From a virus (Duplodnaviria > Heunggongvirae > Uroviricota > Caudoviricetes > Demerecviridae): a stretch of DNA of 64,000 bases. Shown here piece after piece: positions 28,104 to 57,483 of the stretch; the stretch's first letter is position 1; every line of letters starts with the position of its first letter. A program made the position numbers and the translations under genes. Where the stretch lies: IMG/VR virus record IMGVR_UViG_2974606035_000001, positions 3,086 to 67,085 of that record. One strand, given 5' to 3'. The notes under the pieces are model-generated. The model was not told the origin of the DNA. It worked only from the letters and a program-made list of their open reading frames with translations, and ran no database searches.

Positions 28104-28120
28104 GCTTGTTTCCTCAGTTA

Positions 28121-28318: not shown

Positions 28319-28408
28319 TCGTTAACTCCTTCATCAATTTATATAACTATTATATCAGAAATTTAAAGCAAAAGGCAAGTACATTTTTAAAAATTCTGTT
28401 TGGAGGAG

Positions 28409-28615
28409 CTAAACTCCAGATTCTTCAGCCAAGTCTAGACTAATAAGAGATATAGCCATAATTGCTGCTCCATGTTCTTTTTCTCCAGTCTCTTTAGCTA
28501 GAGTTATAATATCAAGAAATTGCTTATGAAAATCCGCAACCTCTTGAGTTATACCTGCCTCAGCAATCATGCCTTTAAGCATGAAACGTTGTGCAGTGAT
28601 TTCAGGATTAGCCAT
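28409..28615 (-). CDS. small protein (68 aa)
   Basis: ORF track. Confidence 0.4.
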   Translation of the reverse strand: MANPEITAQRFMLKGMIAEAGITQEVADFHKQFLDIITLAKETGEKEHGAAIMAISLISLDLAEESGV

Positions 28616-28790
28616 CTTGTTTCTCCAGTTTCATCTTTAATAGTCTACAAATAAAATCAATGTCTTCATCCGTGCCTAGATCTCTATCTTCAAGAGTTGC
28701 CTTGAAGTTTTTAGTTAATTCCATGAGGATAACTTCTCTAGAACGACGTGTTGGCGGAGGTGGATGTCTATACATCTTATTTCCTTAATT

Positions 28791-28865
28791 TGGTGGGTCG
28801 GAGGAGAATCTAACTCCTACTCATTAGCTTATGAGGCCACCGCTTTAACTTTAAGCTACCGACCC
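28791..28865 (-). tRNA. tRNA anticodon CAU (Met/fMet-like loop CUCAUAA)
   Basis: perfect acceptor GGGTCGG/CCGACCC. Confidence 0.5.
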
Positions 28866-28871
28866 TATGTT

Positions 28872-28965
28872 TGGAGGAAGATGCCAGACTCGAACTGGCA
28901 CACCGTGTTTCCACAGTTACTGGCTGTTTAGCAAACAGCTCCCTTACCTTTAGGGTTAATCTTCC
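28872..28965 (-). tRNA. tRNA-Ser (GCU), class II, 94 nt
   Basis: perfect acceptor GGAAGAT/ATCTTCC; loop TTGCTAA. Confidence 0.5.
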
Positions 28966-28980
28966 GAATTTATAAAATAT

Positions 28981-29009
28981 ATTATATTAGAAATTTAGCT
29001 TCATAGCAA
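28981..29009 (-). promoter_or_regulatory. early promoter copy directed into tRNA genes 28791-28965
   Basis: TAGCAA(rc TTGCTA)-17-ATTATA(rc TATAAT). Confidence 0.5.
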
Positions 29010-29505
29010 GAAAATTTTTCAAGTTTTCGGTAGACATCTCATCTACATCTACAGGGGAAACAAAGCCGTTTAATTTTCTAGCAAATTTTTCACCCGCAGG
29101 ATCGTTGTCTCCGACAGCTACCAATTTAAAAGGTAATAATTTCAGTTGCTTTAATAACGCTTTTCCTGGAGAAGAACCTAACATTGCCAGGGCTGGATAA
29201 CCAGCGTTATGTAACGCAACTGCCTTAAATACAGATTCAGCGATCAATACTACTTTTTCAGCTCCATTGAGAGTTTCTAGTCCCCATACACACTGTGTAT
29301 TAGAATAGGTAAAATATTTAGCCTCAGAGGGGCACTTACCATGACCTTTTGGAGCAGAAGGATTATACGTCTGATAGCCTCTCAACATCCCAGAGAAGTC
29401 ATACAACGGGACTGTTAGCCACCCTTCTGGACTTAACCAGCAATGATATTTATCTATATCAAATCCCCTAGATAAGAGGTGCTGTGTTAGCTCATCAACA
29501 TTCAT
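28987..29505 (-). CDS. Toprim-domain protein (DnaG-like catalytic core, ~173 aa from ATG 29505)
   Basis: VVLIAESVFKA...VAVGDNDPAGEKFARK; promoter+leader consensus 29512-29565 fixes start. Confidence 0.5.
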   Translation of the reverse strand: MNVDELTQHLLSRGFDIDKYHCWLSPEGWLTVPLYDFSGMLRGYQTYNPSAPKGHGKCPSEAKYFTYSNTQCVWGLETLNGAEKVVLIAESVFKAVALHNAGYPALAMLGSSPGKALLKQLKLLPFKLVAVGDNDPAGEKFARKLNGFVSPVDVDEMSTENLKNFLAMKLNF

Positions 29506-29682
29506 ATTTGGTTCCTCTCTCAAATTTATAGATATATTATACAGAGAATTTATCATTCGAGCAATCAAATTTTTTAACTTTTTAGAGGAAAATCGTAGGG
29601 CACTTAAGGGTAGCAGATAAGTGGTGAGGACCAAAATTTGTGACCCCACTAAAAATCCGGGGGCAATTTTTAAAGACCCCTT

Positions 29683-29715
29683 GACATTTTCGCTGGGGTA
29701 GTGTAAAGTATATGT
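29683..29715 (+). promoter_or_regulatory. sigma70-like promoter TTGACA-17-TAAAGT for plus-strand island
   Basis: ttgacattttcgctggggtagtgtaaagt. Confidence 0.4.
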
Positions 29716-29772
29716 TATGGATGAGTGATCAAAGAGACACACATTTTCTATATACTAGGAGGTGTCAAAAAA

Positions 29773-30759
29773 ATGACAGAAGAAGTAGCTAAGAGTCCTG
29801 AGACCGTCGCTAGCGTTGCAGCAGAACTGCACCGTCACGAGGAATCAGATAAGAAAAAGTGGGAGAAGGTCAGAGCCTACGAAGAAAAACATCGTGAACA
29901 TGATGATGAAGAAGATGACGATGATGAACATTGTCATAAATATGGAAAACATAAAATGCAAGAACCAGTAAACGTATTCACTAGTGGCTTCCCTGGCCTA
30001 CTGGGTGGTTACCCAGCAAACGCAGGTGCTTTCGGTGGTGAAGGTATGGGACTATTCGGAGCTATCCTAATCGGTGCTCTATTAACAGGCGGATTCGGTG
30101 GTTTCGGTGGATTCGGTGGACGTGGTGTAGTTGGTGATGGTACCGCAGTTGATGCAGTACTTCAGAACCAAGATACCGCTAGTATTCTAGCAGCTATTAA
30201 CACTACTCGTACAGAAGCTAATCAGGGTACTGGAGCTGTTTTAAGCGCAGTTAACAATGGTTTTAGCCAGACATCCCAAAACCAGAGCCGTGATACTCAG
30301 TCTGTACTAACTACGATCTATGGTACGGGTGCTAATCTGTCTAATCAAATCTGCCAGGAAACTCGCAACGTTATTCAGGGTCAGTTCGATCTTTCTCGCC
30401 AGATTGATCAATCTTTCGCAGCTAATCAGATAGCTCGTGCACAGGATAAGTTTGATTCTGCACAGATCGCTTTCCAGCAGACTTTACAAACTAATAACCA
30501 GTTTACCGCTGTTCAGGCTCAGATGTGTGCTAACCAGAACTCTCTGGAACGCCAGATCGCTGAATGTTGCTGTGAACTTCAGACTGCGATCGCTGGTGTA
30601 ACTACTGCGCGTATCCAGGATGAGTTAGATGCATGTCGCCTACGTGAAGCAATCGCTGCGGGTAATGGTGCTAACGGTCAGGTAATTAATCAAATCGCTG
30701 TAAGTCTTGGTGCTATCACTCAGACTCTGGCTGGTCTGCAGGCTAAACTGCCGGCTTAA
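29773..30759 (+). CDS. low-complexity protein: acidic/His-rich N-term, GGFGGFGGFGG Gly-Phe repeats, long Q/N/S/T-rich predicted helical tail (329 aa)
   Basis: ORF track 29725-30759; RBS TAGGAGGTG before ATG 29773; GC-rich codon usage unlike neighbours. Confidence 0.55.
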   Translation: MTEEVAKSPETVASVAAELHRHEESDKKKWEKVRAYEEKHREHDDEEDDDDEHCHKYGKHKMQEPVNVFTSGFPGLLGGYPANAGAFGGEGMGLFGAILIGALLTGGFGGFGGFGGRGVVGDGTAVDAVLQNQDTASILAAINTTRTEANQGTGAVLSAVNNGFSQTSQNQSRDTQSVLTTIYGTGANLSNQICQETRNVIQGQFDLSRQIDQSFAANQIARAQDKFDSAQIAFQQTLQTNNQFTAVQAQMCANQNSLERQIAECCCELQTAIAGVTTARIQDELDACRLREAIAAGNGANGQVINQIAVSLGAITQTLAGLQAKLPA

Positions 30760-30780
30760 TATTAAGGGGAGGAGCCCATT

Positions 30781-31197
30781 ATGAGTAAATATGGTTTTGT
30801 AAATAACGGACTTAATCAAAGTATGGGCTCCCAGCAGCCCATTCCGGGTCTGGATAACCCCTACTTACAACAGTTGCAACAGCGTTTAGCAGAAGCGCAA
30901 CAGATGCAGCAACAACTCCAGCAAAATCCTGGAAGTGTGAGTCCTATGCAAATGATGCAGCAAATGAGCGGGCAGTCGCAAATGCCTCAACAAATGCAGC
31001 AACAGGTGCCTCAGCAGCAAGTTCAGCAACAAACCCAACAACCGCAGGTTTCTGCGGAAGGACAGGCAGTACTAGCCCTTTTCGAAGACTTCGCAAAGAC
31101 AGAGGATGGGAAACAGCTTGTATCACTTATGGGTAAGTTTAATAGCTTCTGCCAAAGCCAAATTGCAAAAGCTCAAAATAGCGGTAATAACTCCTAA
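30781..31197 (+). CDS. Gln-rich (prion-like) protein, 138 aa
   Basis: ORF track; GGAGG RBS; >30% Q in central region. Confidence 0.5.
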   Translation: MSKYGFVNNGLNQSMGSQQPIPGLDNPYLQQLQQRLAEAQQMQQQLQQNPGSVSPMQMMQQMSGQSQMPQQMQQQVPQQQVQQQTQQPQVSAEGQAVLALFEDFAKTEDGKQLVSLMGKFNSFCQSQIAKAQNSGNNS

Positions 31198-31206
31198 GGA
31201 GGAATT

Positions 31207-31401
31207 ATGTGTTGCAGAAAATCTGTTTCGTGCTGCCCAATGCCTGTAGCACGTTGTTGCTCTCCAGCAATGTTTACGCAAATACCGGCGTTCAATCCGT
31301 TTGCCTTTAAGCCTACTCTTATCCTGCCCCCTAGAGTAGATTTTCAGTCAAGATTGGCCTCCCGTATGGGTGGTTGCTGTACACCGAGAGTATGGTTCTA
31401 A
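31207..31401 (+). CDS. Cys-rich small protein (64 aa; CC, CC, CC, CC pairs)
   Basis: ORF track; AAGGAGG RBS; followed by terminator. Confidence 0.45.
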   Translation: MCCRKSVSCCPMPVARCCSPAMFTQIPAFNPFAFKPTLILPPRVDFQSRLASRMGGCCTPRVWF

Positions 31402-31410
31402 ACCAAAAAC

Positions 31411-31447
31411 AAAAGCCCCTGCCGAAAGGTAAGGGGCTTTTTCTTTT
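31411..31447 (+). terminator. rho-independent terminator AAGCCCCT..AGGGGCTT + TTTCTTTT
   Basis: seen directly. Confidence 0.65.
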
Positions 31448-31461
31448 GCCTTAAATACAGA

Positions 31462-31497
31462 AAAGCCCGCGCTCTCGGAGGAAACGCGGGCTTGGTT
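31462..31497 (-). terminator. rho-independent terminator AGCCCGCG..CGCGGGCT + TTTTCTG (minus)
   Basis: seen directly. Confidence 0.6.
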
Positions 31498-31516
31498 CAA
31501 AGATTACGTGTAACTA

Positions 31517-32464
31517 TTACTTATTACGCATATCCATAATCATTTGGCCATCATAGCCAGTGCCAACTACAGTCTGAGGTACACCACCTTGATACTTCTG
31601 AGCACGAATCATTTCAACTTCCAGTTGCTTCCAGCGAATCATCTCAGGAGTAATGGTACGTTGTAATGCGGCGTTAGCTTCAGCTTCTTTCTTAGCTGCG
31701 TACAGTTTAGCATCTGCGTCACGTTCATTAGCAATAGCTTGGTTGTTGCGAGCTTCACGGTCTGCTTCTGCTTGTTTAACCTTCTGCTGTGCTTCTTGCT
31801 CAACGCGGGCCAGTTCAGCTTTAGCAGCATTAACTTGCTCTTCACGAACTTTGGTATTCTGTACCTGTTCCATGATTACTGGCGGCAAGGTAATATCCTG
31901 AAGGAATACCTGCTTAACTGTGTAACCATATGGGCGCGCATATTCTTCAACTTCCTGTTGAATTGCAGTTTGCAATTGAGCCTGAATTTTAGCATCAAAC
32001 AAATCTTGTGCTTTAGGTACAGACTTACCAAACTCACGAATAGTAGACAGTAATTTTTCAGTTACATACTTGTCTAGTGCCTGATCCTGAGTACCTGCGT
32101 TAATACGGTTAATCGGTGCCTTAGAACCATCAAATTGCAACATAACAGTCAGGTCAACAGTGGATTTAAACTTATCCTGACTAGGAACCTGAAGTTTATC
32201 TAATTTTACAGCAATATCTTTTGTACTAAAAGTATCGAAAGATGCAAACGGGTTTACAAGATGGAAACCCGGCAATACTGGATTAGGATCTACTTTACCC
32301 AGGAATGTTTGAGTTTTAACCGTACCATCAGAAACAATAGTATATGAATTAAAGGCTAGAATCAAGCCTGCTAAACCAACTACAGCACCAATACCCCAAC
32401 GTTTAATAGTACGAATTACTTTCTGCTCAGAAGTCAGTTCTTTCATATTTTTAGTATTAAACAT
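31517..32464 (-). CDS. SPFH/band-7 (prohibitin/HflKC-like) membrane protein, 315 aa
   Basis: N-terminal TM, SPFH-like core, long Ala/Glu/Gln coiled-coil tail. Confidence 0.55.
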   Translation of the reverse strand: MFNTKNMKELTSEQKVIRTIKRWGIGAVVGLAGLILAFNSYTIVSDGTVKTQTFLGKVDPNPVLPGFHLVNPFASFDTFSTKDIAVKLDKLQVPSQDKFKSTVDLTVMLQFDGSKAPINRINAGTQDQALDKYVTEKLLSTIREFGKSVPKAQDLFDAKIQAQLQTAIQQEVEEYARPYGYTVKQVFLQDITLPPVIMEQVQNTKVREEQVNAAKAELARVEQEAQQKVKQAEADREARNNQAIANERDADAKLYAAKKEAEANAALQRTITPEMIRWKQLEVEMIRAQKYQGGVPQTVVGTGYDGQMIMDMRNK

Positions 32465-32498
32465 ATATTTCCTTTGTTTTAGTTACAGTTAATAAAAT

Positions 32499-32573
32499 TG
32501 GCCGAGGTGACAGGATTCGAACCTGCATAAAGGAATTTAGAAGACTCCTGCCTCTCCCTTAGACTACACCCCG
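32499..32573 (-). tRNA. tRNA-Arg (UCU)
   Basis: T-arm CAGG/TTCGAAT/CCTG; loop CTTCTAA. Confidence 0.5.
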
Positions 32574-33223
32574 TTTAAGTATTTTTAAGAACTCTCGTAA
32601 AAACTCTTAAAAATACAGACGATACCGGGAGAGTCATAAGTCTCACTCATTAAGTATTTCAAGACAAAATACAGTAACGTCTATTATTTTCCAGTTTAAG
32701 TCAGGGTGACTTAGTGGTTATGTCCTGCGGTATATTGAGGACTCGGTTAGGCTTGGGGTCATGACTTCCCACCTTTTGCTGCTACTCAACAGGAGTTATC
32801 GCGAATTACCTGTGCTATTGTGCACCATTAGTGACATCTCTCATGTCAGCATTTCCCACTTTGTGGATAGCTTGAAAAACTACTCCGATATGGAGAAAGA
32901 ACTTCACTATCCTAGAATACCTTCTAAAGTTCTTCTTTAGCCTGGACATAGTTAAATCGTAATAAAACTATTCAGCAGACTGGTTGGTTAGTCTGGAACC
33001 AACTACCGCGTGGTTTAGGCAGTGCGCAACTAACCTCGGAAGCTTTTACGTTAAAAGCACCAGTTATCCAGTTCTTACCGACCGTAGGATTCGAACCTAC
33101 ATCTTCCACCAGTTACGGCTTGATAATACCAATTATACTAGGACGGCAGTGTTACTACATAAGTGATTTCCACACCCCACTATTTATAAATTAGATAGAA
33201 ATTACTCTCTAATTTATAAATAT

Positions 33224-45949: not shown

Positions 45950-46091
45950 TTGGCTTTCCTTTTTATAGTTATCAGGATTTAAGGAATATTCTACATTATT
46001 ATTGGTCATTAGGCAAATAAAATTTTCTGATAGAAAAGGCCCGAGTATTTTCATACCCAGGCCCTGTATATTACCAGTCTAGCTTTTTAGC

Positions 46092-46313
46092 TTATTCAAT
46101 TACTTTAGCTCTAGCTACTTCTTTTAATAGAATATCTATGGAGGTGCTCAGCTCGTTATAATTGAATGGTTTATTTGGATTTGAGGTTACAATTTTCCAC
46201 GCTAGGGTTGTCTTAGGGCTTTCTTCCCCTTCCTTACGTGTAATTATATTAGCAGCACTCAGTGAGGTACGATGTACTTTAGTTTTACGGCTCAGATGAA
46301 CAACGTTTCCCAT
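46092..46313 (-). CDS. hypothetical protein (~73 aa from MGNVVHL)
   Basis: ORF track 46092-46382 trimmed to avoid PhoH overlap. Confidence 0.35.
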   Translation of the reverse strand: MGNVVHLSRKTKVHRTSLSAANIITRKEGEESPKTTLAWKIVTSNPNKPFNYNELSTSIDILLKEVARAKVIE

Positions 46314-46314
46314 A

Positions 46315-47076
46315 TTACACCTTCCCCATGTCTTTAAAAATGTCATAAAATGCTTTAGACTCAACAGAACGAACGTTATCAATCAATTCGATCATTGAGA
46401 ATGGGGCATTTTCGTATTTCTCATAGACTTCCATAAGGAGTGCTAGACCTGAGTCACCTTTAATGTCTTTCTGAGCTATATCTCCGCAGATAATTAAACG
46501 GCAGTCTTGCCCTACACGAGTTAGGAGACAAATCATTGCCTCAACGGAAATATTCTGAGCTTCATCGACAATTACATAGGAGTTGTTGAAAGTTCTGCCA
46601 CGAGCATGTTCTACTGCCAAAAATTTAATTTTCTGACGTTCGACATATCCCTTATAGGCATGATCGCCGATGGCCCATTTCATACCATCAGCTATTGGCT
46701 CTAACCAAGGCTCTAGCTTTTCCGCTAGATCACCAGGAAGCATACCAAGAGACTTACCTAGAGGTTCATTAGGACGTACGAGGATCACTTGCTCAATATC
46801 TGAGTGAATGTCTACGAGTTCCTGAGCTGCAAGAACAGACGGAATAAAGGTTTTACCTGTACCTGGCTCACCAATACCCACAGTCACTGTGTTGTTCTTG
46901 ATCATATTGATATATGATTTTTGCTCGCGGTTTTTACCTACTAGGGATTTAGCAACTGGGTTAGCGTAATCATTAGAAAAATCAGCCTGAATTACGTTAT
47001 TCTCATACTTGTTGCCACGCTTTCTTGAACCATTGCGGTTCTCTCTTTTTTGACGTGCTTTTCCCATAAATAACAC
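46315..47076 (-). CDS. phoH: PhoH-like ATPase
   Basis: Walker A GEPGTGKT, PhoH-like core. Confidence 0.75.
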   Translation of the reverse strand: MLFMGKARQKRENRNGSRKRGNKYENNVIQADFSNDYANPVAKSLVGKNREQKSYINMIKNNTVTVGIGEPGTGKTFIPSVLAAQELVDIHSDIEQVILVRPNEPLGKSLGMLPGDLAEKLEPWLEPIADGMKWAIGDHAYKGYVERQKIKFLAVEHARGRTFNNSYVIVDEAQNISVEAMICLLTRVGQDCRLIICGDIAQKDIKGDSGLALLMEVYEKYENAPFSMIELIDNVRSVESKAFYDIFKDMGKV

Positions 47077-47143
47077 TCCTATAGTGTACTTCGCTTCTAA
47101 CAGAGGATCAACAAAAAGATCTTGTTTATCAACTTACAAATAT

Positions 47144-47172
47144 ATTATACCAGTATATACAGTAAAAAGCAA
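47144..47172 (-). promoter_or_regulatory. early promoter copy for phoH
   Basis: AAGCAA-17-ATTATA on plus. Confidence 0.5.
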
Positions 47173-47309
47173 CTACAATTTTAAATAAGCCTATGATATT
47201 GCATTTAAATAAAAAATTTGCTTGCTTATAAAGGTAGAAGTATGATACTAGATAATCATTTATTTATATGTGAAATATTACAGTATTAGATGGCTAAAGA
47301 AAATTTTAA

Positions 47310-47338
47310 TTGACATAGTGGATAATGTTTAGTATAAT
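47310..47338 (+). promoter_or_regulatory. consensus sigma70 promoter TTGACA-17-TATAAT
   Basis: ttgacatagtggataatgtttagtataat. Confidence 0.6.
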
Positions 47339-47366
47339 AGGTGTAAAAATTCTGTGGAGAAGAGGA

Positions 47367-48230
47367 ATGCCGAAAAAATTAACTCAAGAAGAAGTAGATA
47401 AATGCCTAGCCGAACGTGGTTTTACTATGGTGGATAAGCCATATCAAAATTCTAGGTATAAGCATACGTATCAGTGTGAATATGGTCATCAATGGACAGC
47501 TAAATTTGACGCTATTAGGAATGGAAAGACCAATTGTCCTACTTGCTCTATTAATAGCCGTAAACTAGATATTGATAAAATTAATACTGTATTACAGGAC
47601 AGGGGTATTACATTGTTGGATGGCTATAAAAATAGTGCCGATATAAATACTAGATTTAGGTGTGTTTGTGGTCATGAGTGGACTACTACACTTAATAGTA
47701 TAATTAATAGAGGTAGCGGCTGCCCATCTTGTGCTATTAATAAGCAGAAACTTAGTGTTAATATTATAAATGATCGTCTTACCGCCAGAAATATCAGAAT
47801 AGTGGGAGAATATAGTAATGCGAATACTAAGACAGCCTTTCTATGTGGTGCAGGGCATAGGTGGGAAGCTACTCCAGGATCTGTATTAAGAGGGAACGGT
47901 TGTCCTTACTGTAATTATAGGGATTTAGAAAGTACTAAGATATATGTTATGCATAGCCCCTCACACGGAGTTAAAATAGGTAGATCTAATAATCCAGATC
48001 GTAGACTTTTACACATTAGATCTAGTAGCCACCTTATTGATTTGGAAATAATTAAAGTATTTGAAATTGGAGAATATAGTAGTGCAGTTAGAATCGAAAA
48101 ATTAGCCCATAACTACTTTAAAGAACAGAATTGCCAGTACAAAGATTTTGATGGCGCTACGGAATTCTTCAATATTGAACCAAAAGTAGCTATAAAGTTT
48201 ATCGAGGAAATAATCAATGACAGAGAATGA
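47367..48230 (+). CDS. T5orf172 (GIY-YIG-like) domain protein with three CxxC repeat modules (288 aa)
   Basis: three GH.W...CP.C repeats; KIGRS...R...E...FDGATEFFNI C-terminal domain; GGAGAAGAGG RBS. Confidence 0.55.
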   Translation: MPKKLTQEEVDKCLAERGFTMVDKPYQNSRYKHTYQCEYGHQWTAKFDAIRNGKTNCPTCSINSRKLDIDKINTVLQDRGITLLDGYKNSADINTRFRCVCGHEWTTTLNSIINRGSGCPSCAINKQKLSVNIINDRLTARNIRIVGEYSNANTKTAFLCGAGHRWEATPGSVLRGNGCPYCNYRDLESTKIYVMHSPSHGVKIGRSNNPDRRLLHIRSSSHLIDLEIIKVFEIGEYSSAVRIEKLAHNYFKEQNCQYKDFDGATEFFNIEPKVAIKFIEEIINDRE

Positions 48231-50637: not shown

Positions 50638-50827
50638 GGGTTTAAACGCCGCTTTGGAAAACGCATTAATGCAGCACTGGGAAACTGGCTATAAGGATGG
50701 TGTTGAATCCTGCGCTACTATGCTAGAAGTTATTGCTAATACCTTAATGGAGAAAGGCAATAAAGAATTAGCTGAGCTATTAGACAGTATTGGGCAAAAC
50801 TTCAGAGAACAGGTGAAAAATGCGTAG
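50606..50827 (+). CDS. hypothetical protein (73 aa)
   Basis: ORF track. Confidence 0.45.
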   Translation: MAFSKPMLPDKGLNAALENALMQHWETGYKDGVESCATMLEVIANTLMEKGNKELAELLDSIGQNFREQVKNA

Positions 50828-51638
50828 ATTAATTATTATTAGCGGTGCAGGTTTGAGTGTTGAAAGTGGTGTACGAGCTTTTCGTACTGATACTGCTAGT
50901 GGTAAAGCATTGTGGGATGATTATGATCTAGAAGAAGTATGTAATATTCATGCCTTTCGTGGTAATTTTTATCATAAAACCCATATGTTTTACAACAAGC
51001 GTCGTGAAGAGCTAAAAACTGTTGAACCCAATCTTGCTCATTTGCGTATTGGTGAATGGTATAAACAATACCCTGGTCAAGTAGTAAACTTGACCACTAA
51101 CGTTGATGACCTTATTGAGCGTGCTGGCGTTCCACATAGTGACATTCTACACATTCACGGATATTTAAAAGAGGTTGTTGTAGCTGATAGCTACAATAGT
51201 AGCAACAAACGGATTATTGATGTAGGATACAATTCTATTGATCCAGATGATTATAAATGGGTTAAACCTAATGTAATCTTCTTTGGAGAGCATGCTTCTG
51301 CGTACGCAGAAATGTATAATGTTTTTGATGGTATTACCAGTCAAGATATGATTGTTGTGGTTGGTTGCTCTAATCAAGTAATTAACTTCTACTGGGAATT
51401 ATTTCCTGTTCTTAATAGGACTGCTGCGAAATTTATGGTTGTTAACTACTATGATAGTGCCCTGGCAGCAGAGCCGGGCTATCAAGGTATGACTCGTAGT
51501 GAGATGTACCAACTGGAGGAACGCGGTGTCCCTTACTGGAGTAAAGGTGCGGTAGATGCTTTCAGTGACCCTGATTTTATTGCTCGTGTAAAAGCTCATT
51601 TAGAGGGTAGACCTTATGTGTCGAGAAGCAAGAAATAA
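50820..51638 (+). CDS. Sir2-family (sirtuin-like) NAD-dependent deacylase/ADP-ribosyltransferase
   Basis: GAGLSVESGVRAFR, NVDDLIERAG, HIHG motifs. Confidence 0.6.
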   Translation: MRRLIIISGAGLSVESGVRAFRTDTASGKALWDDYDLEEVCNIHAFRGNFYHKTHMFYNKRREELKTVEPNLAHLRIGEWYKQYPGQVVNLTTNVDDLIERAGVPHSDILHIHGYLKEVVVADSYNSSNKRIIDVGYNSIDPDDYKWVKPNVIFFGEHASAYAEMYNVFDGITSQDMIVVVGCSNQVINFYWELFPVLNRTAAKFMVVNYYDSALAAEPGYQGMTRSEMYQLEERGVPYWSKGAVDAFSDPDFIARVKAHLEGRPYVSRSKK

Positions 51639-51801
51639 TGAATGGGATATTTTTATAACTGAGTCTGGCACTTGGTGTTATAGGTTTGCCTATAGATTTC
51701 CTAATGTAAAAGAAAGATTAGGCAACACATATAAAATTATCTATACTACGGATAATACATGGTTATCATCTGGAGAAGAGGAGAAACAGGTATGTCCATA
51801 G
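51616..51801 (+). CDS. small protein (61 aa)
   Basis: ORF track. Confidence 0.35.
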   Translation: MCREARNNEWDIFITESGTWCYRFAYRFPNVKERLGNTYKIIYTTDNTWLSSGEEEKQVCP

Positions 51802-51974
51802 TTAAATCTGTATATACACATCCCGATGATATATTTGTATGGGCAGATGGTAGTTGGTGCTATCGATGTGAGTTATGGGAAATGGACTATAAATCCGATG
51901 ACTATGGTGTTATATACGTCGATACGGTTGAGTATGATACGTTCTTAGAAAGGAACAAAAATGGAAATAAGTAA
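51759..51974 (+). CDS. small acidic protein (71 aa)
   Basis: ORF track. Confidence 0.4.
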   Translation: MVIIWRRGETGMSIVKSVYTHPDDIFVWADGSWCYRCELWEMDYKSDDYGVIYVDTVEYDTFLERNKNGNK

Positions 51975-52467
51975 TACTCCAGTTATTTTTCTAGACATTG
52001 ATGGGGTGCTCAATTCGAGCATCTCCCACCATCATGCGCCTGATGATGAAAAGATTTTCTTTGGAAGTGACTGGGTTTTCAAACCACTTCTCAAGGCTTT
52101 TCAGGACTTTATTCGTCCTTCCCCAATAATGATTGTTGGGGTATCATCTTGGTTCTCTGTTAGAAATGAGATGGAGAACGTTCAGATTATGACCGGATTA
52201 GGTCTTATCGATCGTTTTCTTGGTACAACGGATTTTACGGGGGGTGGGTTATCTAGGGGTAATTCTGTTCTTCGCTTCGTTGAAAAGCATAAACTCAAAC
52301 ATTGGTGTGTTCTGGATGACGCTGGTGCTATGATGTACCAGTATCCAACGGTTATAGTCAATGGTAGAACTGGAATAAATCTTCAAGATTTAATGGCTGT
52401 TAGCTATATGCTAGAATTTAGTCCAGATCTTGAAATGTGTAAAGCCCTACAACAATTTAAGGTGTAA
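51961..52467 (+). CDS. HAD-superfamily phosphatase-like protein
   Basis: FLDIDGVL motif I; VLDDAG late motif. Confidence 0.5.
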   Translation: MEISNTPVIFLDIDGVLNSSISHHHAPDDEKIFFGSDWVFKPLLKAFQDFIRPSPIMIVGVSSWFSVRNEMENVQIMTGLGLIDRFLGTTDFTGGGLSRGNSVLRFVEKHKLKHWCVLDDAGAMMYQYPTVIVNGRTGINLQDLMAVSYMLEFSPDLEMCKALQQFKV

Positions 52468-52469
52468 AT

Positions 52470-52898
52470 ATGTTCAATAATGTATTCTCTAAAGAAGCTA
52501 ACCCAATTTTGGTTAACTTTTGGCGTACTCTACCGGCTAGCCTGTATAATGAGGCTATTAACTCCTTGAAAATATGGTGTGAGAATAACGAAATCTCCTT
52601 TGCTTTTAAAGATGATATTGATGAGGCCCCCTGTATTGGTTTAATTGTGCAGGTAGAGGATGGTCTTGAAGAGATTGTTGGCTGGAAAGAGTTAGACGAA
52701 ATGGGCTTAGTTTTTGCGTTAAATTATAAGCTGTTTATGCCTGCTAAGCATCGCCTTGTTGTTAACTATAAAACTAGTGAATCTCCTGGTTTTCAGGTTA
52801 ATGAACGTTACGGTTGGTCTTACTCACCGGAAGAAGTAAATGATGGGATTCAGAAACTTCGACGTTTCGGGTATATGATCCCGGGTTTAACTGCTTAA
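52470..52898 (+). CDS. hypothetical protein, paralog A (142 aa)
   Basis: shares D.PC(I/V)G...W.EL.(E/A)MGL(V/I).ALN...P.....GY(M/V)(I/V)PGL with next ORF. Confidence 0.55.
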   Translation: MFNNVFSKEANPILVNFWRTLPASLYNEAINSLKIWCENNEISFAFKDDIDEAPCIGLIVQVEDGLEEIVGWKELDEMGLVFALNYKLFMPAKHRLVVNYKTSESPGFQVNERYGWSYSPEEVNDGIQKLRRFGYMIPGLTA

Positions 52899-52907
52899 GG
52901 GGTCATA

Positions 52908-53303
52908 ATGGAACAAGTATATTGGCGTCAGATTGACCCTAGTTTGGTGAGACGTGCGGAGAAGCTGCTACAACGTTGGTTGGGGGTAAGACAAGCCTCC
53001 TTCACTTTTCCGGAGCAGCAAATAGATGATCCCTGTGTTGGTGTTTTCCTATCTGGCTACGCTGGGGAATGGGAATGGGAATTGGATTGGAATGAGTTGT
53101 CTGCTATGGGTTTAATTGTTGCCCTAAACTTCTCTATATTCCATCCACGTGGTTTGGCCATATGTCGTGTGTCTGATGACGGTTGTTCGCCCCATCTTTT
53201 ACAGGTGGAAGATGATACTTGGGAGTACACTCCGGATATTCTTAAAGAAGCTAAAAAACAATTAAACCGTGTTGGGATCTATGTTCCGGGATTAAATGAC
53301 TAA
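52908..53303 (+). CDS. hypothetical protein, paralog B (131 aa)
   Basis: tandem duplicate of previous. Confidence 0.55.
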   Translation: MEQVYWRQIDPSLVRRAEKLLQRWLGVRQASFTFPEQQIDDPCVGVFLSGYAGEWEWELDWNELSAMGLIVALNFSIFHPRGLAICRVSDDGCSPHLLQVEDDTWEYTPDILKEAKKQLNRVGIYVPGLND

Positions 53304-53396
53304 TGATTTTTATTAGCTGAACTCTGATTACCGAGTCATTTTGGCTCGGTTTTCACTGTGTTCAAAGACACTGATAGCATTCTCTTTAAAAATCTA

Positions 53397-53430
53397 CTTG
53401 CATGATGCTCAAAATCTTGCTATAATATTT
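53397..53430 (+). promoter_or_regulatory. early-type promoter (TTGCAT-18-TATAAT) heading ~0.6-kb ORF-free region
   Basis: cttgcatgatgctcaaaatcttgctataat. Confidence 0.5.
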
Positions 53431-54022
53431 ATATTGAATTGAGAGACATTAGTAAAAATTGATTTTGCTAATTTTTCTTAGTGAAGCTGACAAGGGATTT
53501 ACGGCGAGAGGAATCGATGACCTGTAAATAGCTGCATAAGGTACGTTGCTAGAGCTTTACGAAAAAGTTTTTTCTTGTTTACAATCCGCGATACGGAACA
53601 GTTAGGCTGCCCCATTAAGGGTTGTTTTAACTGTTACGTGTTAGTTTTTAAACAAATAATTAATAGAATACTTAGCGATCTACATCCCGTAGGAACCCTG
53701 GTAAGGCCTCGAAGCAACCTAGTGTGAGGTGGTTGTGAAGTGAGACGGGAAGAGTGAAAAACTCTGAGAAGTGATGACGTAAGGTATACTACATCTAGTA
53801 TGAGCTAGTACATGAAGCATTAGGTGAGCAAATCTGGCTTAGCGGCCATCCTCAAGGATTTGTGCGGTATAGTGAAGCGGCAGTGTAGCGTGAAAGGGGA
53901 AGTTGCCACCCCCCTTCAGTATTTGCGATTAATTTGTTGAGAAATTGACAGTAACAGTTGTTCTATTCTTTCTGAATAGTCCTAAAGAAAACTTATTTCA
54001 TTTCCAACACAGGAGTATTGTT

Positions 54023-56809
54023 GTGTTCTCAATCCTACAAGGTCATGCAGGATTTCATCGCGATTTAGCCACAGGCATTTGGCGAGAAGTTAAAGCAGAA
54101 GACTATCTTTTTGCTAAAAGATTTTCCTCAAAGCATCCTGAAGGTAAACCAGCTTCAATGCCCTTCAAGTTTGATGTAATTGATGAAGTTGATCCTCAAA
54201 CCCTAGTAGAAATGCTCCCTCTTATGAGACGTTTAACGTCTGACCCTCATATCGTTGCGGTACGAGGTCGATGTCTTGCACCTAAAAATAATGTGCGGCG
54301 TAAGAAGGGCAACTTTAATGTATCTAATCCAAGTCATATAATTGCAATGGATGTGGATGGTATTGTAGATACAGGTGGTTGTAACAAGTTTGATCTTGTT
54401 GGCATGGCTCGACATATTATTAGAATGTTAAATAGTATTAGTGAGGATATGTTTCCTCTTGATGCAGGGTTTATTGCTCATGCATCGTCTTCGGCTGGGC
54501 TAAAACCAGGTATCCGAATGCACTTAATACTAGAATCTAATGTTAAAGTAACTCAGGGTCAAATCAAATTCTTATTTACATCTATCAATGAAAGTAGTAG
54601 ACAAAAGTATGGCTTTGATATTGCCGACTTAGCTTATTACTCTTCCGTACAGCTCCATTATTTTGCAGATCCGTTATTTACCGATGGTATAGTAGATCCG
54701 TTTAAGGCGGAGGGTGCTTCACGTCTGGTATTTGTTAAGGGTTCTAAAGTAAATTTACCTAATAATCTGGTTGACTATGAAACAACTAGAGGTGAGTTTA
54801 AGGAGGAGTTCTACTCTTTACTCGATCAAATTAAAGGTAAAAAAGCTGCCTCCGATAAAGTAGAGGAAACTATCAGCGAACTAGAAGAAGCTGAGGATGG
54901 AGTGTATCTACGTATCATACCTAAACTCTATCACAGAGCGTTAGAGGATGGTGTTGATTTTGCATGGCTTGAAAAAGAAATCCGTCCAGCCTTATCAGAA
55001 TATATTGCAACTAAAGATAATAGTCGTAATATTCAAGATTACTTTAATAACGGTCGTAAACAGGCTCTGAAAGCGTTTGTTAATAATTCTAAACGCGATA
55101 TACCTGATGTTTTAAAAGGTATTCCACTTAAAAAGCTAGAAACTAATTCTCTAGAAACTGATAATTTCTTGAAATTAAATACTGTGCCACCAGAAGGTTA
55201 TATGACTTTTGTAAAAGCAAGTCTAGGTACAGGTAAAACTACGGCGGTTGTGCGTTGGTTAGATTCAGGAGTTATTAAAGGTAATTTCTTAGCAATTACC
55301 AATACTCGAGCACTGGTATCTTCAAATGCTAAGAAATTTAGTGCAGGACAATATGATAAGTCTGTAGATATGCTTAATTTTAAGCGTGGTGCTATTGACC
55401 GTATGTCCACAACTATCCACTCTTTGCATAAGTTCAAGAGTTTTATTGGTCAAATCGATGCAATCTTTATCGATGAATGTGATGCTGTAATGAATGACCT
55501 ATTATTCGCCCCGGTTGTTAAACAACGTCGTGAATGTATTCAGGTTCTTCGGGATATTCTTGCAACTGCAAAAATCATTATATTATCTGATGGGGATATT
55601 AGTGCAGAAACAATTGAAGCATATGGTTCCTTGATTGAGTTCGATAAACCGGTTGCATTTTATAATCATCACCGTAAAATGCTATCAAAAGCTCATGCTT
55701 ATGAGTTCCCTGATGAATCCAGTATTTGGGTTGCACTTCAGACTTCTCTAGAGATGGGGGAGAAATCTATCCTAGTATCTGACTGTGGACCGGATGAGCT
55801 GAATGAGAAGGGTATGGCATTACGTCGTAATACGGGTGCGTTAGTTAAGGAAATCCACTCAAACTCTACATCTGATGTGGATATTAGACGTATTCTGGAT
55901 TACACAACTAATGAGCTAATTGATCAACAAATTGATTGCTTATTATGTAGTCCATCCGTAACGAGTGGTGTTGACTTCAACTATTTTGATAACGTATTCG
56001 TTATCACTAGAACTAGTAACCAAGCGCCAAACATGCGTTTCCAAGCAATCAGGCGCGACCGTGGTGCTCAGAACATTTATTATTTTATTGATAAATCTAC
56101 GAGTGGGTTCTCCGCAGGTTCTGAACAATATAACATTGATGAAGGTTGGCTGGAGTTAGCACAGCAATTATACGCACGTCGTAGGGAGCTGGAGTCTAGG
56201 AACTATACTAGTACTTTACGTTATTACTTGCTTGATCAGGGTGCAACTATTGATATTTTCAGTGAAAGCTGGGGAACTATCGAAGGTGCAGGTAAAGAGT
56301 ATACAGAAGAGCGAATCAAAGCCATTTTGTACTCAACTCCTGATTATTGTGCCCCCCGCCATGCAGATGCGTATGAAGCTAAACTACTTCTTGTTCGCTA
56401 CTACCATCTTGAGTCTATTAAAGATGTAACAGTTGAGCATGTTGAACAATATATCAAGGATAAACCGAATGATCGAGCGGCATTCTTCCATAAGATGCAC
56501 GAGATGTTCTGGGAGGATATTAAGAAGTGTTCAAATGTTACTATCAAACCGTTCATAGAAGCTCTGAAAGGTAAGAAGAAAGATTTCTTCCTTAAAACAG
56601 GTCAGAGTGCTAACCCAAAATATGCAAGAATGTATCTTGGTATGATGGGTATTGGTAAAGATATGAACACGGAGAATATTGTAGACTGGTACAGAACCTA
56701 TTGTAAAATCGAGTGTATGCCAATTCCATATAAGTTTATGACTGATGAGGAGAAACATATGCATGATGAAGCAATGGCAGAGCTAGGTGCTAGAAATGAC
56801 AGTGAATAA
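54023..56809 (+). CDS. P-loop/SF2-type helicase-like protein, T5 replication-origin-binding-protein-like (start GTG 54023 after AGGAG)
   Basis: Walker A SLGTGKTT, Walker B IFIDECD; ~929 aa; ORF track 53945 start uses TTG. Confidence 0.55.
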   Translation: MFSILQGHAGFHRDLATGIWREVKAEDYLFAKRFSSKHPEGKPASMPFKFDVIDEVDPQTLVEMLPLMRRLTSDPHIVAVRGRCLAPKNNVRRKKGNFNVSNPSHIIAMDVDGIVDTGGCNKFDLVGMARHIIRMLNSISEDMFPLDAGFIAHASSSAGLKPGIRMHLILESNVKVTQGQIKFLFTSINESSRQKYGFDIADLAYYSSVQLHYFADPLFTDGIVDPFKAEGASRLVFVKGSKVNLPNNLVDYETTRGEFKEEFYSLLDQIKGKKAASDKVEETISELEEAEDGVYLRIIPKLYHRALEDGVDFAWLEKEIRPALSEYIATKDNSRNIQDYFNNGRKQALKAFVNNSKRDIPDVLKGIPLKKLETNSLETDNFLKLNTVPPEGYMTFVKASLGTGKTTAVVRWLDSGVIKGNFLAITNTRALVSSNAKKFSAGQYDKSVDMLNFKRGAIDRMSTTIHSLHKFKSFIGQIDAIFIDECDAVMNDLLFAPVVKQRRECIQVLRDILATAKIIILSDGDISAETIEAYGSLIEFDKPVAFYNHHRKMLSKAHAYEFPDESSIWVALQTSLEMGEKSILVSDCGPDELNEKGMALRRNTGALVKEIHSNSTSDVDIRRILDYTTNELIDQQIDCLLCSPSVTSGVDFNYFDNVFVITRTSNQAPNMRFQAIRRDRGAQNIYYFIDKSTSGFSAGSEQYNIDEGWLELAQQLYARRRELESRNYTSTLRYYLLDQGATIDIFSESWGTIEGAGKEYTEERIKAILYSTPDYCAPRHADAYEAKLLLVRYYHLESIKDVTVEHVEQYIKDKPNDRAAFFHKMHEMFWEDIKKCSNVTIKPFIEALKGKKKDFFLKTGQSANPKYARMYLGMMGIGKDMNTENIVDWYRTYCKIECMPIPYKFMTDEEKHMHDEAMAELGARNDSE

Positions 56810-57047
56810 TAAAAAATGGAAAACAAGGAAGTTCCCAGTAAAAGAACGTAAAGTTCCTGTTTATGACACTTCGGAAAAGCTATGTAGGGTGGTTCCTGCT
56901 AGACTAGCATCCATAAATGGCATAGGAGCATGGTTGCTAAAGCAGAGAAAGCAAAGTGTATCATTACGTATATCTTTTGAGTTAGATCAAATTTATAGAG
57001 AATTGGGAGAATTGATTAAAGAAAATGATAACACAGGAAGAGGTTAG
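56787..57047 (+). CDS. hypothetical protein (86 aa)
   Basis: ORF track. Confidence 0.4.
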   Translation: MLEMTVNNKKWKTRKFPVKERKVPVYDTSEKLCRVVPARLASINGIGAWLLKQRKQSVSLRISFELDQIYRELGELIKENDNTGRG

Positions 57048-57483
57048 AGAGGCTTTTGAGTACGATCCTGAAACAGGACATCTTAAATGGAAGAAAACAA
57101 GGCAGAAGAGTCTAGTAGGTAAGTTTGCTGGTGGTAAGCATAAGGGATATATAAGAATAGGGTTTAAGCGTAGGCACTGGGGAGAGCACCAGCTGGTATT
57201 CTTATATCACAAGGGATACATACCAGAAGAGATAGACCACAAAAACAGGATTAAAGATTGCAACTTTATAGAGAATCTAGAAGACTCCAATAGATCTAAA
57301 CAAATGCACAATATTAATGTACGTAAAGACAATAAGTTGGGCGAGCCTAATATCTACATGAGGGGAGATAAATATTGTGTGCTAATGCAGAAAGGATCTA
57401 TTCGTAAGTACCAGCAGTGCAATACTCTAGAAGAGGCTAAAAAAGTTAGGGCTAATTTTAAGTCCGAACTCTACCCAAATTAA
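57025..57483 (+). CDS. HNH homing endonuclease (HNH_3-like)
   Basis: IDHKNRIKDCNFIENLE...N motif. Confidence 0.6.
   Translation: MITQEEVREAFEYDPETGHLKWKKTRQKSLVGKFAGGKHKGYIRIGFKRRHWGEHQLVFLYHKGYIPEEIDHKNRIKDCNFIENLEDSNRSKQMHNINVRKDNKLGEPNIYMRGDKYCVLMQKGSIRKYQQCNTLEEAKKVRANFKSELYPN

What the first reader, a model, noticed from the sequence alone, without database searches (positions are those of the whole stretch)
53330..54022. About 0.6-kb promoter-driven untranslated, GC-rich structured region upstream of the origin-binding-like helicase
A TTGCAT-18-TATAAT promoter at 53397-53430 is followed by about 590 bp without any RBS-led ORF. The region is locally GC-rich and rich in hairpins, for example GAAAGGGGAAGTTGCCACCCCCCTTCAG at 53890-53920 and GGGAAGAGTGAAAAACTCTGAGAAG. 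It ends at the GTG start of the 929-aa helicase. Candidates are a long regulatory 5'UTR or riboregulator, a structured ncRNA, or the replication origin recognised by the adjacent protein, whose transcription could provide origin activation.
Basis: seen in the sequence. Interest (0 to 1): 0.65.

Follow-up and report, generated by a model that had tools for sequence, protein, structure and literature searches.

The report
Large structured RNA before T5-type helicase
The 0.6-kb gap in front of the replication helicase gene of this T5-like phage encodes a previously undescribed, roughly 500-nucleotide folded RNA that is kept in shape across the whole phage family, so a classic model phage carries a large RNA of unknown function that can now be tested.

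Summary
The window is Salmonella phage SP3, a T5-like phage. An upstream terminator hairpin lies at 53330-53350. The GTG start of the UL9-like helicase (obp) is at 54023. Between them sit a conserved early promoter (TTGCAT-17-TGcTATAAT, 53398-53426) and about 590 nt with no conserved ORF.

I compared 44 distinct versions from T5-like phages of Salmonella, Escherichia, Klebsiella, Pectobacterium and Proteus. The spacer is a multi-domain structured RNA:
- a 5' hairpin
- a conserved junction
- a roughly 40-bp closing helix
- two three-way-junction domains
- an invariant CUUAGCGG motif

SP3 also carries an optional 97-nt extra domain. Lineages differ beyond alignability, yet the helices are kept by compensatory changes:
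- 13 of 25 pairs change on both sides in one domain.
- Partner-permutation tests give p=0.0014 or lower for 6 of 12 helices.
- For the motif helix, p=2.5e-5.

About 16% of pairs are G.U, so the + strand transcript is what folds. There is no Rfam match, no paper found, no iterons and no DnaA boxes.

Function is unknown. My best guess is a cis-linked leader RNA domain of the helicase transcript, possibly excised at its long helix. The rivals are a stand-alone ncRNA and an origin primer transcript.

The parts
53330..53355 (+). Intrinsic terminator of the upstream operon. The hairpin is ACCGAGUC/GGCUCGGU, followed by UUUUC. It marks the start of a separate transcription unit.
   Evidence: Sequence. 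The hairpin is conserved and is replaced by a different hairpin plus U-run in Sugarlandvirus. It is annotated as a predicted terminator in the BF23 record.
53398..53426 (+). Early sigma-70 promoter: -35 TTGCAT (53398-53403), a 17-nt spacer, and an extended -10 TGcTATAAT (53418-53426). An A-rich tract lies upstream. The inferred transcription start is about 53433.
   Evidence: The same layout occurs in all lineages. Where an upstream insertion replaced the promoter, the new promoter sits at the same distance and homology resumes at the first hairpin.
53440..53479 (+). P1, the 5'-terminal hairpin. UGAGAGACAUUAGUAAAA pairs with UUUUGCUAAUUUUUCUU.
   Evidence: Predicted in every lineage. In the strand-partner permutation test p=0.0028.
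53480..53576 (+). Optional 97-nt expansion domain, flanked by a UUUUUCUU direct repeat. The placement 53472-53568 is equivalent. Its own closing helix pairs 53481-53488 with 53553-53560. Inside are hairpin 53497-53504/53521-53529 and a second hairpin.
   Evidence: Absent from most T5-like phages. Present once, at this locus, in 51 phage records. A G-C to A-U exchange, with a G.U intermediate, occurs in the closing helix.
53577..53627 (+). Conserved junction J (..GAUACGGAACAGUUAGGCUGCCCCAU..). It includes the mini-hairpin CAGU-UAG-GCUG at 53599-53609.
   Evidence: It is the most conserved primary sequence in lineages A to F. The motif ATACRGAACRGTYMGGCYG finds 31 T5-like viral contigs plus 2 unrelated chance matches, always in this context. 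CAG/CUG becomes CGG/CCG in L080.
53628..53672 (+). 5' strand of the long closing ('leader-trailer') helix.
   Evidence: Pairs with 53918-53960: 39 pairs, 7 of them G.U. Permutation p=0.0014 for both halves. In RNAalifold on mini-constructs, 9 of 15 natural pairs show changes on both sides.
53680..53888 (+). Core domain closed by helix c (53680-53684 with 53884-53888). It holds three parts. First, three-way junction 1: helix d 53685-53690/53745-53750, hairpin d1 53697-53706, and stem d2 53709-53711/53741-53743 plus 53714-53719/53731-53736. Second, hairpin e 53751-53765 followed by the conserved GAGAAGUGA at 53766-53774. Third, three-way junction 2: helix i 53785-53791/53865-53871, hairpin j 53792-53797/53821-53826, and helix f 53828-53834/53857-53863.
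   Evidence: In one search, 94.3% of cells are paired, 13 of 25 pairs change on both sides, and 0 of 500 shuffles reach this. In one search, helices d, d2, j and f have p=0.0014, e 0.0028, c 0.008 and i 0.085. The covariance model hits 53675-53784 at 125.5 bits and nowhere else in the window.
53838..53845 (+). Invariant CUUAGCGG motif, enclosed by helix f.
   Evidence: Present in all 8 lineages, about 320-365 nt after the -10 element. The flanking helix has a different sequence in each lineage but is always complementary. The true partner ranks 1 of 8 in all 8 lineages, and the true assignment is the best of 40,320 permutations.
53894..53916 (+). Hairpin g (AAGGGG / CCCCUU) with the conserved loop AAGUUGCCACC.
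   Evidence: GGGG/CCCC becomes GUGG/CCAC within type A, AUAUGA/UCAUAU in T5 and GAGG/CCUC in Sugarlandvirus. The permutation test is not significant (p=0.11) because the G-rich and C-rich strands also pair well across lineages.
53918..53960 (+). 3' strand of the closing helix.
   Evidence: Type A (GUAACAGUU) and type B (GUAAUAGUU) change together with the 5' strand (AACUGUUAC and AACUAUUAC).
53963..53979 (+). Hairpin h (CUAUUC-UUUCU-GAAUAG). It lies between the folded domain and the A/U-rich, apparently open ribosome-binding region.
   Evidence: Nearly invariant in types A and B. Replaced by other complementary pairs elsewhere (CUAUC/GAUAG, CUUUCC/GGAAAG). Permutation p=0.0028. Whether it acts as an RNA hairpin or a DNA palindrome cannot be decided.
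54011..56809 (+). RBS AGGAG (54011-54015) and the obp gene (GTG 54023 to stop 56809). The product is a 928-aa UL9-like SF2 helicase, equal to the T5 protein studied as 'D2' by Wong et al. 2013.
   Evidence: Pfam Herpes_ori_bp matches residues 394-533, the same domain position as reported in PMC3632103.

Best explanation
The spacer encodes a new family of large structured RNA. The core is about 490 nt; in this phage it is about 590 nt because of an optional 97-nt domain.

Shown:
- A strong early sigma-70-type promoter sits at a fixed distance from obp, and the noncoding stretch follows it.
- The + strand sequence folds into a 5' hairpin and a conserved junction.
- A roughly 40-bp helix formed by the 5' and 3' flanks encloses two three-way-junction domains, an invariant CUUAGCGG motif and a conserved-loop hairpin.
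- This architecture is maintained by compensatory substitutions across T5-like phages of Enterobacterales.
- The RNA always lies directly upstream of, and co-oriented with, the UL9-like helicase gene obp.

Inferred:
- The RNA is made as the 5' part of the obp early transcript. It acts as a folded RNA tied to the replication module, not as a DNA site.
- The long flank-to-flank helix insulates the folded domain from the open ribosome-binding region. It is a plausible RNase III substrate, as in pre-rRNA. Cleavage would release a stable RNA of about 290-330 nt and a mature obp mRNA.
- The 5' hairpin would stabilise the transcript.

What the folded core binds or senses is not known.
For: Identity and locus:
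- The window is Salmonella phage SP3 (100% identity).
- The spacer is about 626 nt in most T5-like phages and 607-1257 nt overall, even at 56-73% obp identity.
- Proteus and Vibrio relatives also have a 700-820-nt gap upstream of obp.

Promoter anchoring:
- The distance from promoter to obp is 525-528 nt in all Tequintavirus and Epseptimavirus loci without the 97-nt insert, except two at 521 nt.
- This holds even where a different promoter was brought in by an upstream insertion.

Conserved structure with divergent sequence:
- The central 300 nt exists as alleles that cannot be aligned but have the same length.
- In the first three-way-junction domain, 94.3% of cells pair and 13 of 25 pairs change on both sides. 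No shuffle out of 500 reaches this, and slid controls give 35-51% paired.
- Pairing each lineage's 5' strand with its own 3' strand beats nearly all of the 720 reassignments among 6 lineages. For 6 helices p=0.0014, for 3 helices p=0.0028 and for 1 helix p=0.008.
- The helix around CUUAGCGG is the best of 40,320 assignments among 8 lineages.
- In the closing helix, 9 of 15 natural pairs have double changes.

Strand:
- The helices total -657 kcal/mol on the + strand against -469 on the - strand.
- 110 of 689 pairs are G.U.

Other points:
- The curated structure lies within 7 kcal/mol of the minimum free energy.
- No ORF is conserved.
- All extra DNA in longer spacers lies upstream of the promoter or is the 97-nt insert inside the RNA. 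No locus has an insertion between the RNA and obp.
- The RNA allele co-segregates with the obp N-terminus but not with the upstream gene.
Against: - No transcript data were available. The start site, the 3' end and any processing are inferred.
- Folding energy is only marginally better than shuffles (z = -1.69).
- No conserved pairing that sequesters the RBS or forms a terminator was found, so a classical on/off leader mechanism is not evident.
- The Proteus phages have a consensus promoter (TTGACA-18-TATAAT) between the RNA and obp. This would make the helicase mRNA independent of the RNA and favours a stand-alone role.
- A 490-nt multi-junction fold is far more elaborate than known translational operators.
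- The covariance model from type-A-like sequences does not recognise types B, C, Proteus or Vibrio. Homology across all lineages therefore rests on shared motifs, synteny and architecture.
- The cross-lineage alignment was my own structure-profile aligner plus hand curation.
Confidence: 0.55

Rival explanations
1. It is a stand-alone, trans-acting large ncRNA in the manner of ROOL or GOLLD-type ornate phage RNAs, or an RNA decoy against a host factor or defence system. In this reading it merely shares the early promoter region with obp. It is released by processing and acts on host or phage proteins. Its divergent alleles reflect an arms race.
For: - The fold is self-contained and closed by a long flank-to-flank helix.
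- It has optional expansion domains and swapped central alleles among phages that are otherwise about 90% identical.
- In Proteus phages a consensus promoter lies between the RNA and obp.
- Its size and multi-junction architecture resemble the large ornate RNAs found in phages, whose structures are described in PMC12286853 (listed).
Against: - Synteny with obp is strict in every lineage, and no insertion lies between the RNA and obp.
- No terminator follows the fold in types A and B.
- There is only one copy per genome.
- It matches no ROOL, GOLLD, OLE or raiA model.
Confidence: 0.25
2. It is an origin transcript. Like ColE1 RNA II or the T4 and T7 promoter-dependent origins, the folded RNA made from the early promoter forms or positions an RNA-DNA hybrid just downstream. 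That hybrid primes or opens the DNA for the adjacent origin-binding-type helicase.
For: - A transcript of about 0.5 kb is anchored to its promoter, with a fixed distance to a downstream point.
- The RNA is G-rich (GC skew +0.40).
- It lies next to the only UL9-like 'origin-binding' helicase gene.
- The RNA allele and the obp N-terminus are co-inherited.
- In T5, obp starts at about 59.5 kb of 121.75 kb, which is near the genome centre.
- From my memory of Bourguignon et al. 1976, first-round replication starts near the centre. This is a lead only; the paper could not be read.
Against: - There are no iterons, no DnaA boxes and no antisense promoter by consensus scan.
- The GC-skew minimum is at 46-47 kb, not here.
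- A strongly self-paired RNA disfavours hybrid formation within the folded part.
- Nothing was tested experimentally.
Confidence: 0.15
3. It has no RNA function. In this reading the spacer is decayed remnants of mobile genes or a DNA-level element such as protein-binding palindromes, and the apparent helices are by-products.
For: - T5-like intergenic regions often receive homing-endonuclease inserts, and such inserts occur right next to this region.
- The folding z-score is weak.
- Hairpin h could equally be a DNA palindrome.
Against: - Length is conserved despite sequence turnover.
- Compensatory changes occur in 10 of 12 helices.
- There is a strong strand asymmetry from G.U pairs.
- The 5' end is anchored to the promoter.
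- No ORF remnants are shared between lineages.
Confidence: 0.03

Closest known systems
Large ornate phage or bacterial RNAs of unknown function (ROOL, GOLLD, OLE, raiA)
   Same: It is several hundred nucleotides long, with many junctions. It is supported mainly by covariation, occurs in phage genomes that also carry tRNA clusters, and has no known function.
   Different: It matches none of their Rfam models. It is tied to one gene (obp) and to a promoter at a fixed distance, and it continues into an mRNA. Its range is restricted to one phage family. Whether it forms multimers is unknown.
ColE1-type RNA II pre-primer
   Same: It is a structured transcript of about 0.5 kb whose 5' end is fixed by its promoter. 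Sequence-divergent 'types' keep the same fold. It sits in a replication module.
   Different: No antisense promoter, origin motifs or hybrid-forming element was identified. It lies in a virulent phage with its own replisome. A helicase gene is translated from the same strand 60 nt downstream.
Pre-rRNA leader-trailer helices and other RNase III-excised RNAs (e.g. B. subtilis scRNA precursor; PMC6582327 and PMC1935012, abstracts listed)
   Same: A long helix formed by sequences flanking a structured RNA. Here it has 39 pairs, 32 of them nearly continuous.
   Different: Cleavage is not shown. The enclosed RNA is not a known stable RNA.
Structured leaders or translational operators of phage replication genes (e.g. 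the T4 gene 32 pseudoknot; candidate structured RNAs upstream of GP32 genes in PMC10690425)
   Same: It is a promoter-proximal folded RNA upstream of a replication gene, and its position is conserved.
   Different: It is about five to ten times larger. No RBS-sequestering pairing is conserved. The RBS region looks open.

Membership tests
Any Rfam 15 family (including ROOL, GOLLD, OLE, raiA, RNase P, tmRNA, 6S, group I/II introns, riboswitches) | Match to the family covariance model at or near its gathering score | tested here: not met
   The only matches in the window are tRNAs at 23-33 kb. A permissive scan of 53200-54100 gave only chance-level snoRNA/sRNA hits. Ten related loci gave no matches.
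Iteron or DnaA-box replication origin | Clustered direct repeats or DnaA boxes in the region | tested here: not met
   Only three short two-copy repeats were found. No TTWTNCACA site lies in 53300-54030; such sites cluster at 3.5 and 5.4 kb.
Iteron or DnaA-box replication origin | Compositional (GC-skew) inflection at the site | tested here: not met
   The minimum lies at about 46-47 kb, where transcription direction switches. This is a weak criterion in phages.
ColE1 RNA II-type primer transcript | Structured transcript of about 0.5 kb with a promoter at a fixed distance from a downstream point | tested here: met
   The distance is 525-528 nt in all Tequintavirus and Epseptimavirus loci without the 97-nt insert, except two at 521 nt.
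ColE1 RNA II-type primer transcript | Antisense regulatory RNA promoter within the 5' domain | tested here: not met
   The consensus scan found no minus-strand promoter-like site in 52500-54500. The test is weak.
ColE1 RNA II-type primer transcript | Persistent RNA-DNA hybrid processed to a primer at the origin | not testable with these tools
   Needs R-loop mapping or replication-start mapping.
Cis-regulatory leader (riboswitch or translational operator) | Located in the 5' region of, and co-oriented with, the same gene across relatives | tested here: met
Cis-regulatory leader (riboswitch or translational operator) | Conserved alternative pairing that hides the RBS or forms a terminator | tested here: not met
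   The predicted pairing of 53586-53595 with the RBS-start region in the window has no complementary counterpart in the DU_PP_V or Sugarlandvirus sequences (inspection). No U-tract terminator follows the fold.
RNase III-processed leader-trailer helix | At least 20 bp of near-continuous double-stranded RNA formed by the flanks of a structured RNA | tested here: met
   There are 39 pairs between 53628-53672 and 53918-53960. The helix covaries.
RNase III-processed leader-trailer helix | Cleavage within the helix in vivo | not testable with these tools
   Needs end-mapping in wild-type and rnc mutant hosts.
Protein-coding gene | ORF conserved in position and frame | tested here: not met

The most novel reading that the evidence does not exclude
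This is a new class of large ornate RNA that is a working partner of the UL9-like helicase at the start of T5-type DNA replication. It could act as an RNA that loads or positions the helicase, or that primes synthesis. That would be an RNA-specified origin in a virulent phage. In this reading the interchangeable RNA alleles act as specificity determinants matched to the helicase N-terminus.
Probability: 0.2. Interest if true: 0.9.

Novelty: new variant of a known kind. Interest (0 to 1): 0.75.

Why it matters
Well-supported bacterial or phage RNAs longer than 400 nt with unknown function are few, and several have turned out to have unexpected structures. This one sits in T5 and its relatives, which are easy to mutate and are widely used in defence-system and phage-therapy work. 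Its role can therefore be tested directly.

It also bears on an old open question, namely how and where T5 starts replication and how the 'origin-binding' helicase is controlled.

Practically, about 0.6 kb that genome annotations leave blank, or fill with spurious small ORFs, should be annotated as an RNA gene or leader. Its divergent alleles and optional domain are useful markers of recombination among T5-like phages.

Tried and rejected
- Rfam scans at gathering and permissive thresholds found nothing.
- A covariance model of the first junction domain, built from type-A-like sequences, did not detect types B or C, Proteus or Vibrio. It could not be used to align all lineages.
- MAFFT Q-INS-i was unavailable. 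I wrote a structure-profile aligner instead.
- MAFFT alignment of the CUUAGCGG domain put the stems out of register. The pair-counting tool could not be used there, so an anchor-based permutation test replaced it.
- The metagenome scan added only one new lineage.
- The junction motif in bacterial genomes gave 83 hits, against about 140 expected by chance by my own estimate. They come from unrelated taxa. I did not inspect these loci. The two non-T5-like hits in the viral-contig scan of the same motif were inspected and are unrelated high-GC sequence.
- There is no similarity in E. coli genomes.
- Vibrio leaders were either 99% or 44% identical in the pairs fetched, so covariation there is uninformative. 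Pairs within the L031/L032 and Proteus lineages were also uninformative.
- For the helicase N-terminal 390 aa, Pfam, PHROGs, PDB sequence search and a 5.8-billion-protein search gave nothing useful. A single-sequence AlphaFold model was unusable at pLDDT 34.
- Literature searches found no description of this RNA or of a mapped T5 origin. The 1976 origin paper is not held.
- A local alternative pairing of AACUGUU (53628-34) with AACAGUU (53597-603) was considered. I judged it secondary because type B changes covary with the distal partner.

Full report
**What the window is**

The stretch 53300-54030 is 100% identical to Salmonella phage SP3 (Tequintavirus, Demerecviridae). 529 phage records match at least part of it. 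The downstream gene runs from GTG 54023 to 56809 and encodes 928 aa. It is the 'replication origin binding protein'. It carries the herpesvirus UL9-type helicase domain at residues 394-533. This is the same layout as the T5 protein characterised as the bipolar helicase 'D2' (PMC3632103). GenBank puts the label 'D2 protein' on another ORF, so I call the gene obp.

**Checking the observation**

- The upstream ORF ends at 53303.
- A terminator hairpin follows at 53330-53350.
- Next comes a promoter: TTGCAT (53398-53403), a 17-nt spacer, and TGcTATAAT (53418-53426).
- The consensus scan missed the promoter because of its TTGC-type -35 element. The same promoter layout is present in every lineage.
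- From 53427 to 54022 there is no ORF longer than 50 aa. None is shared between lineages.
- GC rises to 0.48, with strong G excess, at 53700-53899.
They turn out to be parts of a larger fold.

**The spacer is conserved as a unit**

- In 31 viral contigs, and in records from the phage collection, the spacer between the upstream gene and obp is about 626 nt. It is 607 nt in Klebsiella Sugarlandvirus.
- It is longer only where extra DNA is inserted.
- Proteus and Vibrio relatives also have 700-820 nt of unannotated sequence, or sequence annotated only with small dubious ORFs, before obp.
- The promoter lies 525-528 nt before obp in all Tequintavirus and Epseptimavirus loci without the 97-nt insert, except two at 521 nt.
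- In phages where a 0.5-kb insertion with a 150-aa ORF sits upstream, a different promoter occupies the same position. Homology resumes exactly at the first hairpin.
- No locus has an insertion between the folded region and obp.

**Sequence diverges, structure stays**

The alignment shows nearly invariant blocks: the promoter, 53574-53640, GGCUUAGCGGCC and 53948-53992. These surround a central stretch of about 300 nt. That stretch exists as at least three alleles that cannot be aligned but have the same length:

| Allele | Found in |
|---|---|
| Type A | This window |
| Type B | T5, BF23 and Epseptimavirus |
| Type C | Sugarlandvirus |

Further lineages are:
- Pectobacterium phages DU_PP_V and My1
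- a metagenomic contig (L080)
- Proteus Novosibvirus
- the L031/L032 lineage

Separate folds of each lineage give the same architecture:
- a 5' hairpin, P1
- a conserved junction
- a very long helix formed by the 5' and 3' flanks
- inside that helix, helix c closing two three-way-junction domains, with a hairpin and the conserved GAGAAGUGA between them
- a hairpin with a conserved loop
- after the long helix, a small hairpin and an A/U-rich region that carries the RBS

**Covariation tests**

1. For the first junction domain, a MAFFT alignment of seven type-A-like sequences was scored with a structure I specified.
   - 94.3% of cells pair.
   - 13 of 25 pairs change on both sides.
   - No shuffle out of 500 reaches these values.
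   - Sliding the partners drops pairing to 35-51%.
2. For 12 helices, I took windows from a structure-profile alignment of six lineages. I then compared the duplex energy of each lineage's own strand pair with all 720 reassignments of partners.
   - The true assignment was the best possible (p=0.0014) for both halves of the closing helix and for d, d2, j and f.
   - P1, e and h gave p=0.0028.
   - Helix c gave p=0.008.
   - Helices i (0.085) and g (0.11) were not significant.
3. An alignment-free version was anchored on the invariant CUUAGCGG motif in eight lineages.
   - Every 5' flank prefers its own 3' flank.
   - The true assignment is the single best of 40,320.
   - Example strand pairs: GCAAAUC/GAUUUGU (this window), AUAGAAUC/GGUUCUAU (T5), GUGGU/ACCAC (L080), CACCU/AGGUG (L031) and CCACGUAU/AUAUCGUGG (Proteus).
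4. RNAalifold was run on mini-constructs of the closing helix. 9 of 15 natural pairs have double changes.
5. The curated structure of the window sequence lies within 7 kcal/mol of the minimum free energy. Its closing helix has 39 pairs between 53628-53672 and 53918-53960.

**Which strand, and RNA or DNA**

The same helices are much weaker on the complementary strand: -469 against -657 kcal/mol. 110 of 689 pairs are G.U. Together with the promoter anchoring, this points to the + strand transcript.

The region has:
- no iterons
- no DnaA boxes, which cluster at 3.5 and 5.4 kb
- no GC-skew inflection, since the minimum is at 46-47 kb, where transcription diverges

Folding energy by itself is weak evidence (z = -1.69 on the + strand and -1.67 on the - strand).

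**A window-specific feature**

SP3 and about 50 other records carry a 97-nt insertion after P1, flanked by a UUUUUCUU repeat. There is one copy per genome, always at this locus. It folds into its own small three-way junction. Its closing helix (53481-53488 with 53553-53560) shows a G-C to A-U exchange with a G.U intermediate. It behaves like an expansion segment of the RNA.

**Comparison with what is known**

- No Rfam 15 family matches in the window or in ten related loci.
- There is no similarity in E. coli genomes.
- The conserved junction motif finds 31 T5-like viral contigs plus 2 unrelated chance matches. In bacterial genomes it gives 83 hits, a number consistent with chance by my own estimate. 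I did not inspect those loci.
- I found no paper describing this RNA.

**How it probably works**

*Shown.* The spacer encodes a conserved folded + strand sequence. It sits at a fixed distance behind a conserved promoter, is always linked to obp, and has a self-contained core closed by a roughly 40-bp helix.

*Inferred.* It is the 5' part of the obp early transcript, and its function is exerted as RNA in connection with the replication module.
- The long flank-to-flank helix would insulate the fold from the open ribosome-binding region.
- That helix is a plausible RNase III site. Cleavage would release a stable RNA and a mature mRNA, as in pre-rRNA (PMC6582327).
- The RNA allele co-segregates with the obp N-terminus. 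Type A goes with 98-100% identity over the first 100 residues and type B with 79-91% (L013 is an exception at 86%). It does not co-segregate with the upstream gene, which is 90-95% identical in both types. This is compatible with functional matching or with simple linkage.

*Against a simple leader role.*
- No RBS-sequestering pairing is conserved.
- The fold is much larger than known operators.
- Proteus phages have a consensus promoter between the RNA and obp.

I therefore keep two serious rivals. One is a stand-alone ncRNA. The other is an origin transcript of the ColE1 RNA II type.

**Verdict**

The feature is real and strongly supported as a new family of large structured RNA in T5-like phages. 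Its mechanism remains open. It is directly testable in a model phage.

Noticed in passing
window 3520-3601 (+) and 5370-5451 (-): Clusters of consensus DnaA boxes (TTATCCACA). Some are in pairs 3 bp apart. They match the DnaA-box arrays of the T5 terminal-repeat or injection-stop region described in bioRxiv 10.1101/866236.
   Followed up: partly
window about 46000-47400: The cumulative GC-skew minimum coincides with a divergent transcription switch. The minus-strand ORF ends at 47076 and the plus-strand ORF starts at 47325. A published T5-like genome paper placed its 'origin' at the GC-skew minimum of its own genome (PMC5519627).
   Followed up: partly
window 50820-53303: The genes upstream of the RNA are a Sir2-like protein (50820-51638), a HAD domain of the 'Swiss Army Knife' RNA-repair type (51961-52467), and two paralogous DUF7415 ORFs (52470-52898 and 52908-53303, 30% identical).
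   Followed up: no
window 57025-57483: An HNH_3 homing-endonuclease-type ORF lies shortly after obp, overlapping the end of a small 86-aa ORF.
   Followed up: no
window 23000-33150, minus strand: tRNA cluster. ARAGORN finds 12 genes and Rfam 13, and the lists differ. Rfam alone finds 23015-23089 and 33076-33147. ARAGORN alone finds tRNA-Ser at 25197-25286.
   Followed up: no
L003 1505-2130 (also L009, L014, L021): An insertion of about 0.5 kb with a 150-aa ORF lies immediately upstream of the RNA. It brings a different promoter (TTGCAAGGGAGTATTATTTTATAGTATAAT) that replaces the resident one at the same distance from obp.
   Followed up: partly
L065 and L069 (Proteus phages), about 66 nt before obp: A consensus sigma-70 promoter (TTGACA-18-TATAAT) lies between the 764-nt leader and obp. 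A second CUUAGC-like motif (GCCUUAGCCG) lies near the 3' end of the leader.
   Followed up: partly
L072 (Vibrio phage VspSw_1), about 1550-1850: The spacer upstream of obp contains a tandem duplication of a hairpin-rich module of about 100 nt. The Vibrio spacers start with strong promoters but share no detectable sequence motif with the enterobacterial RNA.
   Followed up: no
window 54023-55192 (obp residues 1-390): The N-terminal 390 residues have no Pfam, PHROG-function or PDB match, and a single-sequence model failed. By eye they contain IIAMDVDG and SAGLKPGIRMH motifs that recall primase-polymerase catalytic motifs. This is a lead from memory only. Some GenBank records call the protein a primase.
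   Followed up: partly
window 10988, 34108, 53838 (+); 61989, 63232 (-): The 8-mer CTTAGCGG occurs 5 times in the window against 1.3 expected. Two of 100 shuffles reach 5.
   Followed up: no
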